Positions 37,512 to 64,000 of a DNA stretch of 64,000 nt are shown one piece after another. Origin of the DNA: Candidatus Heimdallarchaeum endolithica (GTDB lineage Archaea; Asgardarchaeota; Heimdallarchaeia; Heimdallarchaeales; Heimdallarchaeaceae); contig CP084167.1 of the NCBI GenBank assembly GCA_021513715.1, positions 64,001 to 128,000 on the forward strand. The letters run 5' to 3'. The notes below the pieces were generated by a model. It was given only the letters and a program-made list of their open reading frames with translations. It was not told where the DNA came from and did no database searches. The translations under genes were made by a program, and so were the position numbers. Positions within the stretch are counted from its first letter, which is position 1, and each line of letters begins with the position of its first letter.

Positions 37512-39341
37512 TTACAATTCTAGTTTGTATTTTGTATCTTTTAGTTTTTTATTTTTCTTTTTGTTATTGTTAAACACTTTAGCAAATATTCCTCCAATAA
37601 CCCATTGACCTAAAATTGAACTTATCCCCAAACTTATTGTATAAGGAGGTTTTATCAAAGGAATATTTACAGAACTATTTGTTTGATTTTCATTTTGGAA
37701 AGAAAAATCTTCTATTGGATTAAGTCTATAAGTTATATTTTTGAGAGAAACATAGGTTCCTGAGCCATAAATTGTTAGTTTAATTTTTACCTCATTATAT
37801 CCTTGATAAATTTTAATATTTTCAGCAACAGATATCCTACCAGTTTCATTAAAAATTTTACTTATTGAACTATTTACTCCTATTGTTATTCCAACATTTA
37901 TTCTATCAAAAACTTCATCATAATCTGTAAGAAGAGTAAAAGACAAATTAAAAACATAATCAATTATTAATGAATAATCGTTGAAAAATACATCATAGTA
38001 ATTTAGAATGACTGCACCTAGTTGGGGAGTATAAACACTTTTCTCTGATTCTACTTCCCTAAATATACCTTTAGAAGACATTTTTGGGATTTCTGAAACA
38101 GTGAGATTAGAAGAATTGTAAATTAAGATTTTTCCTTTCCCACTATGTTCTAATTTACTATAAAAATTAACCAACAATTGTTTATTGTAGGTGTAAGTAT
38201 AGGTATTTATTTCTATTATCTCTTCTTCTCCTTGTTCATAACTCATTACTTTTCCTGTATAAATGGTATATATCCCAGAAATAATTTTAAATTCAATATA
38301 AGGAGTTACAGTTGCACCTTCAAAACCACAACTAAGATTTAAGTTTATTATTAACTCCTTAGAACTCTGCTCATTTTTTAAAATAGATATATCAAAAGTT
38401 AAATCTATTTTATCTCCTTCCCACTCTTGAGAATCAAGAATGTCTTTTTCTTTAATTGTTTCTTCTTTCTCAACTTCAATACTTAAACTAAAGCCATCTA
38501 AATGTATGATGTCAGAGCTATATCCTACAGTAAAAGAGATATTCAAAATATTTAGGTCATTTCCACAATCTAATGAGAATAATATTGTATTAAATCCAGA
38601 GCTAAAATCCTTTTCTGTAAGGTTTGAACCTATTTGAAAAGTTATTTTTCTTTCTAGTGAAGTAAACTCGTTTGTATTAAATGTAAAATTTAACTTAATT
38701 TTTGAAATGTTTGAAGTTTTTACATAGAAAAATGATTTTGCAGAAAAAGATTTTTTAGAAAAAGAATTGCCAGAAAAAGAAATAGAATAAGGAATAACAT
38801 CTGGATTGATTTTTTCTTCTGTTTCCAATGAAGGAATATCATATGAATGAAGACTTATTGTCTTGAAAAGAGTTAAATTTCCTTCTTTTCCTATGAAGCA
38901 TTGTCCTTCAAAATATATACTAATCTTGGTTTCTTCTTCAATATTCTCGCAATAAAGGCTTTTTGTAAGAGAATGAATATTATTATCTTGTAAAAGTTTG
39001 TCAATTCTAAAACTGATATTTATCAGATCATTAAAAGTTATACACAATTTTAAGCTATCATCCAAAGCTAAACTTCCACTTGTTTTAAATTTAATTTCAA
39101 AACCATATAAGCCATTTATTGAAAGATTCTGAATGAAAGAATAAGTATATTTAGAAAGCTTATCTGTAAAATTAAAGACTATATCATGAGGTATAACTAT
39201 AGTTGATTGAAGTTCATTTTTAACCTGATTATTTTCTTTATCAACTATATCATATGCTTTTACAAAATATAGTGGGGATAAGCAAAAAGTTACTATTATA
39301 ACTACAACTAAAGAAGTAAATAGTAGATTATCTCTTTTCAT
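37512..39341 (-). CDS. Secreted, C-terminally anchored beta-rich surface protein (probable start ATG 39341)
   Basis: Signal-like N-terminus, beta-strand-rich body, hydrophobic C-terminal segment followed by a Lys-rich tail. Confidence 0.7.
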   Translation of the reverse strand: MKRDNLLFTSLVVVIIVTFCLSPLYFVKAYDIVDKENNQVKNELQSTIVIPHDIVFNFTDKLSKYTYSFIQNLSINGLYGFEIKFKTSGSLALDDSLKLCITFNDLINISFRIDKLLQDNNIHSLTKSLYCENIEEETKISIYFEGQCFIGKEGNLTLFKTISLHSYDIPSLETEEKINPDVIPYSISFSGNSFSKKSFSAKSFFYVKTSNISKIKLNFTFNTNEFTSLERKITFQIGSNLTEKDFSSGFNTILFSLDCGNDLNILNISFTVGYSSDIIHLDGFSLSIEVEKEETIKEKDILDSQEWEGDKIDLTFDISILKNEQSSKELIINLNLSCGFEGATVTPYIEFKIISGIYTIYTGKVMSYEQGEEEIIEINTYTYTYNKQLLVNFYSKLEHSGKGKILIYNSSNLTVSEIPKMSSKGIFREVESEKSVYTPQLGAVILNYYDVFFNDYSLIIDYVFNLSFTLLTDYDEVFDRINVGITIGVNSSISKIFNETGRISVAENIKIYQGYNEVKIKLTIYGSGTYVSLKNITYRLNPIEDFSFQNENQTNSSVNIPLIKPPYTISLGISSILGQWVIGGIFAKVFNNNKKKNKKLKDTKYKLEL

Positions 39342-39369
39342 AAGCTTCAAATGATAATAAAAAAAATCA

Positions 39370-39385
39370 TTTATAAACCGAGAAA
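39370..39385 (-). promoter_or_regulatory. TTTC-N4-TATA promoter
   Basis: TTTC-TCGG-TTTATAAA, 28 nt before the ATG at 39341. Confidence 0.6.
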
Positions 39386-39391
39386 TATTTG

Positions 39392-63547: not shown

Positions 63548-63570
63548 TCAATGACTAATAACAGAATTTC

Positions 63571-63609
63571 TTTATAAATAAGAGAAATCATTTTTCCCTA
63601 ATTTATAAA
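63571..63609. promoter_or_regulatory. Back-to-back TTTC-N5-TATA promoters
   Basis: Minus: TTTC-TCTTA-TTTATAAA (63587-63571), 23 nt before ATG 63547; plus: TTTC-CCTAA-TTTATAAA (63593-63609), 24 nt before ATG 63634. Confidence 0.65.
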
Positions 63610-63633
63610 CAATTATAGATATTGAATTATTGA

Positions 63634-64000
63634 ATGAAATTTTCAATTCTAGTAAAAACTGAAAATTATGAAGAATTTTTATTAAAAAAACAAGATAAGA
63701 TTGAACAATTGAAACTACTTATTAATACAGAAAGTAGAAAAGCTACCTTAGTTATTCTTTCTTCAACTAAAAAAAAAGAAGTAGCAAAAACCATTCAAGA
63801 ATTAGATTTTCAAAAAACTATTTCTAAATTAGTAAATCTTGGTTATTTTTCAGATATTAATCCTGTTTCTACTATTTTATCTGATAAACAATTTCTTTGT
63901 TTCTACCTTCACGATATTTTAGGTTTCAAATCAGAAGAGATAGCAAATTTTACCCATAATAGTCCCTCTACCATAAGAGATCATTTATCTAATGCTAGAA
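63634..64000 (+). CDS. Protein with sigma-70 region 4.2/LuxR-like HTH, partial at the window edge
   Basis: My translation: MKFSILVKTENYEE...LSDKQFLCFYLHDILGFKSEEIANFTHNSPSTIRDHLSNAR. Confidence 0.72.
   Translation, partial: MKFSILVKTENYEEFLLKKQDKIEQLKLLINTESRKATLVILSSTKKKEVAKTIQELDFQKTISKLVNLGYFSDINPVSTILSDKQFLCFYLHDILGFKSEEIANFTHNSPSTIRDHLSNAR

What the first reader, a model, noticed from the sequence alone, without database searches (positions are those of the whole stretch)
37512..64000. Candidate cell-contact/DNA-exchange/recombination system with its own transcription factors
Seen: about 26 kb, nearly all minus strand, combining RadA-, RadB-, Hel308-, Hef- and nuclease-like genes with a HerA/VirB4-like protein, several membrane proteins, 2121-aa and ~610-aa surface proteins, two TFB-like genes and an HTH gene. 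Most units share one promoter motif. I recognised no integrase, relaxase, replication or capsid gene. Established: HerA/VirB4-like ATPases with membrane partners move DNA (conjugation, crenarchaeal Ced), and Rad51 paralogues with Ski2-like and FANCM-like helicases act in recombination. Inference: a domesticated, inducible mating-like or developmental programme, of interest for the origins of eukaryotic recombination control. I do not recognise it as a described system.
Basis: partly seen in the sequence, partly recalled or inferred. Interest (0 to 1): 0.9.

Follow-up and report, generated by a model that had tools for sequence, protein, structure and literature searches.

The report
Co-regulated Asgard envelope–recombination gene cluster
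In a Heimdall-group Asgard archaeon (close relatives of eukaryotes), a spare set of DNA-recombination genes and several cell-surface and membrane genes sit together and share their own unusual promoter; this may be a switchable programme for recombining with DNA from other cells, but DNA transfer itself is not shown.

Summary
The cluster is real and chromosomal. The genome is a sister of Ca. Heimdallarchaeum aukensis, probably H. endolithica PR6. Housekeeping RadA, Hel308, Hef, HerA–NurA and TFBs lie elsewhere. Gene order is kept across the family, and related clusters occur in other Heimdallarchaeia and a few further Asgard lineages. All genes tested are under purifying selection, and there are no mobile-element hallmarks. 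The shared promoter is confirmed: a matrix trained only on other genera puts 10 cluster-region genes, including the XPD gene outside the reported span, in the top 12 of 2001 (p≈7e-22). It is a TATA box with a pyrimidine-rich BRE position. Corrections: the 1049-aa protein has a VirB4/HerA-family fold, closest to VirB4, but lacks Walker A, so it is no motor; the Hef copy is also dead. The two 'TFB-like' genes show no detectable TFB homology; a divergent true TFB 66 kb away is the better candidate reader. No pore, pilin or relaxase was found. Best reading: an inducible cell-contact plus recombination programme, analogous to the Sulfolobales TFB3/Ced regulon but not a Ced member (0.35). An intracellular repair or developmental state is nearly as likely. 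This scan noted the cluster before in other genomes; I found no paper describing it.

The parts
31851..33665 (+). XPD/DinG-family Fe-S helicase with intact motifs; outside the reported span but part of the system
   Evidence: Pfam DEAD_2 and Helicase_C_2; promoter rank 2 of 2001; adjacent to cluster genes in G025, G261, G239, G258, G215, G153, G161, G063, G048, G288
31814..31831 (+). Regulon promoter (pyrimidine-rich BRE position + TATA) of xpd
   Evidence: score 18.1
37512..39350 (-). About 610-aa secreted or surface protein of unknown family
   Evidence: N-terminal hydrophobic segment; conserved in family clusters at 23-27% identity; dN/dS 0.19
39370..39387 (-). Regulon promoter of the 612-aa gene (weaker copy)
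   Evidence: rank 60 of 2001
39392..41503 (-). Hel308/Ski2-like helicase with a SWIM zinc finger; motifs intact
   Evidence: Pfam DEAD, Helicase_C, SWIM; motifs I, II and VI and the SWIM Cys/His conserved
41517..44666 (-). VirB4-like pseudo-ATPase: alpha/beta N-domain, dead P-loop domain, winged helix (614-712), helical tail
   Evidence: AF2 model pLDDT 66; VirB4 4ag5 Z 25.9, rmsd 3.4 over 331 residues; DndH Z 26.1; HerA Z 22-23; full TrwK chains align residues 7-586 to 220-790 at rmsd about 22; wHTH Z about 11; Walker A absent
44690..44707 (-). Regulon promoter of the VirB4-like/helicase unit
   Evidence: rank 12
44724..45197 (-). Small PD-(D/E)xK-type nuclease-like protein; best marker of the system
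   Evidence: invariant R-D, E-x-E, H, P, G-x-G; 65 of 301 Asgard genomes; dN/dS 0.03
45236..45253 (-). Regulon promoter of the nuclease gene
   Evidence: rank 3
45254..45886 (-). RadB-like Rad51 paralogue with Walker A present
   Evidence: syntenic
45870..46508 (-). 5-TM membrane protein, M50-peptidase-derived, with the zinc motif lost
   Evidence: aligns with 54350-55090; homologues in G063 and G048 keep HExxH
46518..47930 (-). 2-TM hairpin plus alpha/beta domain; candidate membrane anchor (VirB3-like role) of the VirB4-like protein
   Evidence: TM segments at 38 and 63; model pLDDT 52, fold search inconclusive; weak complex pass
47965..47981 (-). Regulon promoter of the 470-aa / 212-aa / RadB unit
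   Evidence: rank 5
47988..54353 (-). 2121-aa Ig-repeat surface protein, putative adhesin
   Evidence: Big_1, Big_3_5; Ig-protein homologues in nearly every related cluster
54350..55090 (-). 5-TM M50-like pseudo-peptidase (HExxH with Glu lost)
   Evidence: dN/dS 0.04
55083..56405 (-).
   Evidence: upstream elements
56847..58001 (-). Multi-TM protein with paralogues elsewhere; probably a passenger
   Evidence: promoter rank 671; not beside the cluster in other genera
58082..59170 (-). Accessory RadA paralogue; Walker A/B, catalytic Glu and L1/L2 regions kept
   Evidence: 32-34% to the three other RadA-family copies; own clade ordered by genus; dN/dS 0.018; alignment
59200..59217 (-). Regulon promoter of radA paralogue
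   Evidence: rank 6
59529..61331 (-). Hef/FANCM-like pseudo-helicase; motifs I, II and VI lost, no nuclease domain matched
   Evidence: intact Hef in the clusters of G261, G025, G077, G063
61359..61375 (-). Regulon promoter of the hef-like gene
   Evidence: rank 7
61392..61793 (-). 133-aa ORF of unknown family (true start probably 8 codons in)
   Evidence: promoter 61793-61809 ranks 1; dN/dS 0.04
62127..62864 (-). 245-aa paralogue of 55083-56405; TFB homology not detected
   Evidence: promoter 62884-62900 ranks 4; unlinked homologues in other genera also carry the motif
62918..63547 (-). 209-aa ORF of unknown family
   Evidence: promoter 63571-63587 ranks 11
63634..64000 (+). HTH (sigma70-region-4-like) protein, 223 aa, runs past the window end
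   Evidence: promoter 63593-63610 ranks 8

Best explanation
A vertically inherited, switchable programme that couples cell contact to homologous recombination with DNA from another cell. Shown: the genes are an accessory set under purifying selection, and most units share a TATA box preceded by a pyrimidine-rich element where ordinary promoters of this genome are A-rich. Inferred step 1: that element is read by an alternative TFB, most likely the divergent true TFB at genome 194535-195494, so the set is switched on together. Inferred step 2: the Ig-repeat and 612-aa surface proteins hold cells together. Inferred step 3: the 2-TM protein anchors the VirB4-like pseudo-ATPase at the membrane as a scaffold, not a motor, with the two M50-derived membrane proteins. 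Inferred step 4: the nuclease, the Hel308-SWIM and XPD helicases, RadB and the RadA paralogue process DNA that arrives at the contact and recombine it into the chromosome. Because no pore, pilin or live motor is in the cluster, DNA would have to cross by cytoplasmic bridges or fusion, or through parts encoded elsewhere. This crossing is the weakest step.
For: Housekeeping copies elsewhere. Envelope and recombination genes stay linked in five or more Asgard families despite reshuffling. dN/dS 0.02-0.23. A promoter matrix from other genera ranks 10 cluster-region genes in the top 12 of 2001, p 7e-22; six of these units were not in the training set, and controls were negative. Unlinked homologues carry the motif, and another family has its own variant TTTAGCT-TATA (leave-one-genome-out p 0.006). 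True divergent TFBs sit in the clusters of G077, G092 and G063; the candidate in this genome is family-wide, has a changed C-terminal helix, and lies 13-66 kb from cluster genes in five genomes. The fold is closest to VirB4, and the N-domain aligns with the second half of the TrwK N-domain. Homologues in G077 and G048 begin with their own two hydrophobic segments. Complex of the 2-TM protein with the VirB4-like protein: weak pass, ipSAE 0.49 against best control 0.00. The mark was reached by 58 of 80 solved and 2 of 110 mismatched pairs, but at 0.60 or under by only 7 of 80 solved pairs and both mismatches; runs agree in at least 61% of contacts; partner pLDDT at least 56; it may reflect likeness to solved VirB3-VirB4. 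Precedent: TFB3 co-regulates ced, ups and herA operons in Sulfolobales (PMC9905601, PMC11823120).
Against: Walker A is lost in every cluster homologue aligned, so there is no translocase. No CedA/VirB6 channel, VirB2 pilin or relaxase was recognised in the cluster, and ComEC and DprA are not found in the genome. The adhesin operon head lacks the motif (rank 792). The 2-TM protein's fold is unresolved, and it has no profile homology to the fused N-termini. The in-cluster TFB-like genes fail homology tests. No motif was recovered for family f5 (p 0.10). There are no expression or phenotype data. Co-regulation does not show one machine.
Confidence: 0.35

Rival explanations
1. An inducible intracellular programme: a stress, dormancy or cell-cycle state in which a second recombination toolkit repairs or equalises the cell's own chromosomes at the membrane, while surface proteins and lipid-type enzymes remodel the envelope. 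No foreign DNA is involved.
For: It explains the regulon, the accessory enzymes and the absence of motor and pore equally well. LuxE-like and LuxC-like genes share the promoter (ranks 16 and 9). The VirB4-like protein carries a winged helix that could tether DNA.
Against: It does not explain why a large Ig adhesin and a VirB4-type protein are kept with the recombination genes in distant lineages. The housekeeping herA-nurA-mre11-rad50, radA, hef and hel308 genes do not carry the motif where scored.
Confidence: 0.3
2. A true DNA importer of Ced/Ted type, with the M50-derived membrane proteins as the channel and power from an ATPase encoded elsewhere, such as the intact VirB4-like gene at genome 2121098.
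For: VirB4-like fold and membrane partners. An intact DUF87 ATPase with N-terminal hydrophobic segments exists in the genome. CedD is encoded apart from cedAB.
Against: That ATPase lacks the promoter motif (best score 6.1). M50-type proteins are not known DNA channels (own knowledge). No pilin or VirB6 homologue was found.
Confidence: 0.1
3. An anti-virus or anti-plasmid defence module (HerA plus nuclease plus Ski2-like helicase, as in DUF4297-HerA or Hachiman).
For: The nuclease gene is next to the HerA-family gene in most clusters. The helicase hits HamB models (1e-33). Many fold hits are defence HerAs. A restriction-modification pair is inserted next door.
Against: Single-copy, near-universal, vertical presence in three families is unlike defence genes. 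The ATPase is dead. HamB hits cover only the generic helicase core. RadA, RadB and the adhesin are unexplained.
Confidence: 0.08
4. An ordinary integrated plasmid, ICE or provirus, or its decaying relic.
For: VirB4-derived and dead enzymes; absent from some families (f3, and f11/f14 not found).
Against: No integrase, tRNA or GC shift. Same flanks in the sister species. dN/dS 0.23 or less. The RadA tree follows genera. The parts are split over several loci in relatives. It does not match the described features of the mobile elements of these genomes (PMC8813620).
Confidence: 0.03

Closest known systems
TFB3-dependent DNA-damage regulon of Sulfolobales with the Ced importer and Ups pili (PMC9905601, PMC11823120)
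   Same: Chromosomal, domesticated VirB4-family protein with membrane partners; cell-contact and recombination genes under one promoter code.
   Different: The VirB4-like protein here has no Walker A; no CedA/VirB6 or CedA1 pilin recognised; an Ig adhesin instead of pili; a private RadA/RadB/Hel308-SWIM/XPD/Hef set; the control signal is a changed element at the BRE position.
Ted loci of Thermoproteales (PMC9905601)
   Same: VirB4-like gene clustered with recombination genes.
   Different: Ted has TedA, TedC, HerA, Rad50 and ParA; none of these is in this cluster.
VirB3-VirB4 of conjugative T4SS (T. pseudethanolicus 4ag5, R388 TrwK)
   Same: Closest fold of the P-loop domain (Z 25.9); N-domain aligns to TrwK from residue about 220; a 2-TM partner gene nearby.
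   Different: Catalytically dead; added winged helix and helical tail; no relaxase, coupling protein or mobile element.
Second RadA clade of Heimdall/Gerd archaea (PMC12722695)
   Same: RadA duplication in these lineages is in print.
   Different: The part read gives no gene context or regulation; whether this paralogue is one of its two clades was not tested.
Bacterial competence regulon (ComX/ComK; own knowledge)
   Same: One alternative promoter code switches on surface and recombination genes.
   Different: ComEC and DprA are not found in the genome.
Eukaryotic Shu complex (SWIM protein + Rad51 paralogue) and HELQ with Rad51 paralogues
   Same: A SWIM finger, a Hel308-type helicase and a RadB-type paralogue are encoded together.
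   Different: Analogy only; no interaction or orthology tested.

Membership tests
Ced/Ted DNA-import system | VirB4-family ATPase fold (CedB/TedB) | tested here: met
Ced/Ted DNA-import system | Intact Walker A/B in that ATPase | tested here: not met
   GxxxxGK[ST] absent in all cluster homologues
Ced/Ted DNA-import system | CedA/VirB6-like channel | tested here: inconclusive
   The 5-TM proteins trace to M50 peptidases; they were not folded
Ced/Ted DNA-import system | VirB2-like pilin (CedA1/TedC) | tested here: inconclusive
   No small 2-TM ORF of 70 aa or more recognised in the cluster; no genome-wide structural search
Ced/Ted DNA-import system | DNA import after damage | not testable with these tools
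   needs cultures
HerA-NurA resection / HerA-nuclease defence | HerA with N-terminal HAS barrel and active ATPase | tested here: not met
   alpha/beta N-domain instead; Walker A lost; the genuine nurA-herA-mre11-rad50 operon is at genome 470-477 kb
TFB/TFIIB family (55083-56405, 62127-62864) | Two cyclin-fold TFIIB repeats | tested here: inconclusive
   No Pfam or PDB hit; hhalign probability 0.16-0.3%; structure not predicted
TFB/TFIIB family (55083-56405, 62127-62864) | N-terminal zinc ribbon | tested here: not met
   No conserved CxxC pairs in the alignment
TFB/TFIIB family (genome 194535-195494) | Zinc ribbon plus TFB repeats | tested here: met
   E 1e-5 to a TFB profile, Cys conserved
RadA recombinase | N-terminal HhH domain, Walker A/B, catalytic Glu, L1/L2 | tested here: met
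   but below NCBIfam RadA cut-offs (225.9 < 259), and FxxA reads FxxL
Hef/FANCM helicase-nuclease | Helicase motifs I, II, VI and ERCC4 nuclease | tested here: not met
   match covers only positions 78-430 of 781
M50 metallopeptidase | HExxH zinc motif | tested here: not met
   HQVIQ in one protein, absent in the other; intact only in distant homologues
Integrative mobile element (ICE, provirus, aloposon) | Integrase/att at a tRNA, patchy presence | tested here: not met
ComEC-type natural competence | ComEC and DprA | tested here: not met
   0 matches in the complete genome; controls positive

The most novel reading that the evidence does not exclude
Asgard archaea close to the eukaryote ancestor have a sigma-factor-like switch (an alternative TFB with its own BRE code) that turns on a mating programme: adhesion, a conjugation-derived but motor-less membrane scaffold at cell-cell junctions, and a dedicated RadA paralogue with mediator-like partners. 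This would be a prokaryotic analogue of a meiosis-specific recombination set coupled to cell fusion.
Probability: 0.15. Interest if true: 0.95.

Novelty: new variant of a known kind. Interest (0 to 1): 0.72.

Why it matters
How Asgard archaea exchange and recombine DNA is open and bears on the origin of sex. The published RadA duplication in Heimdallarchaeia has no function attached. This locus gives one paralogue a gene context, partners and a promoter code, and names a candidate factor, so the question becomes testable by RNA-seq, in vitro transcription and biochemistry. Even if no DNA crosses between cells, a conserved regulon defined by a changed BRE-position element would be a clear case of basal-factor switching in the lineage nearest to eukaryotes.

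Tried and rejected
VirB3/VirB4-N-domain identity of the 470-aa protein: low-confidence model, best Z 7.2 or less, no VirB4 chain listed; no profile match to the N-termini of fused homologues. Promoter motif as a mere terminator of the upstream gene: rejected, since it tops the list among 446 short co-directional gaps and occurs at divergent promoters. Motif in family f5: not recovered. System in the two largest Asgard families (f11 0/76, f14 0/68): not found with the nuclease or VirB4-like profiles; this is a limit of the query, not proof of absence. Terminal or att repeats: none convincing. Rfam: none. The hairpin at 61930-62080 is not significant (z -1.44). PF13398 (M50B) is not found in the genome. 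The VirB4-like tree did not finish, and the RadA tree is the quick version. Literature searches found no description of the cluster; the library lacks most subscription papers.
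Full report
Source. The window is bases 64001-128000 of a single 3,326,783-bp contig. The nearest relative is Ca. Heimdallarchaeum aukensis PM71, with 82% identity in the 1049-aa protein. The two circular Heimdallarchaeum genomes are 3.32 and 3.08 Mbp (PMC8813620), so this is most likely Ca. 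H. endolithica PR6 (inference).

Observation. The ORFs are as described. Family searches confirm RadA-, RadB-, Hel308- and Hef-like genes, an Ig-repeat protein and an HTH protein. The helicase also has a SWIM finger that is conserved in homologues, including the distant G063. The RadA paralogue keeps Walker A/B, the catalytic Glu and the DNA-loop regions. The Hef-like protein has lost motifs I, II and VI in this family but is intact in other lineages' clusters. The two 5-TM proteins resemble each other and trace to M50 peptidases through homologues with intact HExxH in G048 and G063.

The large protein. An AlphaFold2 model (pLDDT 66) matches the HerA/VirB4 family. The best rows are DndH (Z 26.1) and VirB4 4ag5 (Z 25.9, rmsd 3.4 over 331 residues), ahead of HerA (Z 22-23). 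Full-length TrwK chains align from model residue 7-13 to chain residue about 220, at high rmsd. It also has a winged helix. Walker A is missing in every cluster homologue, so it is a pseudo-ATPase, yet dN/dS is 0.13. Homologues in G077 and G048 start with two hydrophobic segments, which suggests membrane attachment. The 2-TM 470-aa protein gave a weak pass as its partner: ipSAE 0.49 against best control 0.00; at such scores 7 of 80 solved pairs and both passing mismatches fall; contacts agree at least 61%; partner pLDDT at least 56; likeness to solved VirB3-VirB4 may contribute. The 470-aa protein's own fold is unresolved.

Accessory, not housekeeping. The genome has three other RadA-family genes and a RadB, three canonical TFBs, Hel308, Hef and a nurA-herA-mre11-rad50 operon elsewhere.

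Conservation. The order 612-aa, 470-aa, 212-aa, RadB, nuclease, VirB4-like, helicase, RadA, Ig protein recurs in other genera of the family, while the 440-aa + 246-aa pair sits at a separate locus in most. Families f2, f5, f6, f7 and genomes outside the class (G077, G092, G063, G048, G042) have reshuffled clusters with overlapping parts, often including XPD. The nuclease marker is in 25/28, 1/1, 19/21, 10/11 and 2/2 genomes of these families, single-copy as a rule, and was not found in f11 or f14. The RadA tree follows genera (quick tree). All genes have dN/dS 0.02-0.23 against the sister species. There is no tRNA, nearby integrase or GC step, and the flanks match the sister genome. An ordinary mobile element is rejected.

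Promoter. Typical TATA boxes of this genome are preceded by A-rich bases; cluster units have TTTYYYY-type bases there. A matrix built de novo from 27 upstream regions of other genera ranks 10 of 15 cluster-region upstreams in the top 12 of 2001 (hypergeometric p 7e-22). XPD, the VirB4-like unit, the 133-, 245- and 209-aa genes and the HTH gene had no counterpart in training. Twelve control matrices gave none, and 1 of 141 non-cluster upstreams of relatives reached score 12. Unlinked homologues of the 245-aa gene carry the motif in other genera. Family f6 has a variant, TTTAGCT before the TATA box (p 0.006); f5 gave no motif. The heads at 56405 and 58001 lack it, and the former has its own conserved tandem TGCAA element. 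Similar 18-mers occur inside genes by chance, so the signal is position-dependent. That the element is a BRE read by a special TFB is inference.

Transcription factors. The two genes called TFB-like are paralogues (25%) with no detectable TFB homology and no zinc ribbon. True divergent TFBs are in the clusters of G077, G092 and G063. In this genome a divergent TFB at 194535-195494 is found in 13 of 17 family genomes, lies 13-66 kb from cluster genes in five of them, has an altered last helix, and has a CT-rich element before its own TATA box (rank 53). It is the best candidate reader, untested.

How it most likely works. Shown: an inherited, co-regulated set of envelope and recombination genes. 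Inferred: an alternative TFB switches it on; adhesins join cells; the dead VirB4-like protein is a membrane-anchored scaffold; the nuclease, helicases, RadB and RadA paralogue recombine DNA that arrives at the contact. With no pore, pilin, relaxase, ComEC or DprA the route of DNA is unknown; bridges or fusion would need no motor. I give this 0.35, an intracellular repair or developmental state 0.30, a Ced-type importer powered from elsewhere 0.10, defence 0.08 and a mobile element 0.03.

Comparison. It works most like the Sulfolobales TFB3 regulon with Ced and Ups (PMC9905601, PMC11823120) but is not a Ced/Ted member, because the active ATPase test fails and the channel and pilin are not found. 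The RadA duplication in Heimdallarchaeia is in print, without context in the part I read (PMC12722695). I found no paper on the cluster or its promoter. Earlier AI notes of this scan report the same cluster in another genome and similar islands in Loki-type genomes; these are leads, not support.

Noticed in passing
window 17397-18542 (-) and 27743-29173 (+): A LuxE/acyl-CoA-ligase-like gene and a LuxC-like acyl-CoA reductase gene carry near-identical copies of the regulon promoter at the same spacing (ranks 16 and 9). They may be further regulon members making a lipid or signal.
   Followed up: partly
window 61994-62007 and 56415-56428 (-): The 14-mer TTGCAGATATGGGT occurs only twice in the genome: in a hairpin loop after the 245-aa gene and just before the start of its 440-aa paralogue. 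Both copies are kept in the sister species, and relatives have AGACATGG before the start.
   Followed up: partly
window about 56470-56490 (-), and L069, L070, L072-L075, L153-L156: Tandem TGCAA repeats about 11 bp apart upstream of the 440-aa gene and its orthologues; a likely binding site of a separate regulator.
   Followed up: partly
window 33665-37512: Variable slot between xpd and the cluster: a BsaWI-like restriction enzyme, an N4/N6 methylase and an IS-like remnant here; a 2646-aa protein in the sister species.
   Followed up: partly
genome 376700-377365: Stand-alone paralogue of the 212-aa membrane gene that also has the promoter motif (rank 18).
   Followed up: partly
genome 2121098-2130913: A second VirB4/DUF87 ATPase with intact Walker A and N-terminal hydrophobic segments, near a small GTPase and an FtsZ/tubulin-like gene; no regulon motif.
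   Followed up: partly
L190:7858-8898 (genome 2273858-2274898): Another divergent TFB heads an operon that looks by eye like pilus-assembly genes; no regulon motif.
   Followed up: no
window 16268-17326 (+) and 20655-21506 (+): An archaeal type IV pilin-like protein with a lectin-type domain, and a ParA/MinD ATPase; neither has a strong motif.
   Followed up: no
window 21544-22886 (-): A geranylgeranyl-reductase-like gene split into three ORFs: pseudogene or sequencing frameshifts.
   Followed up: no
L120:11917-12504: In family f5 clusters the Ig gene is followed by a YdjM/DUF1286 membrane protein.
   Followed up: no
genome 48390-50972, just before the window: A divergent family-B DNA polymerase-like gene; no regulon motif.
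   Followed up: no
L082:1722-2780 and L083:13860-14918: Family f4 keeps the same RadA paralogue clade without the rest of the cluster beside it.
   Followed up: partly
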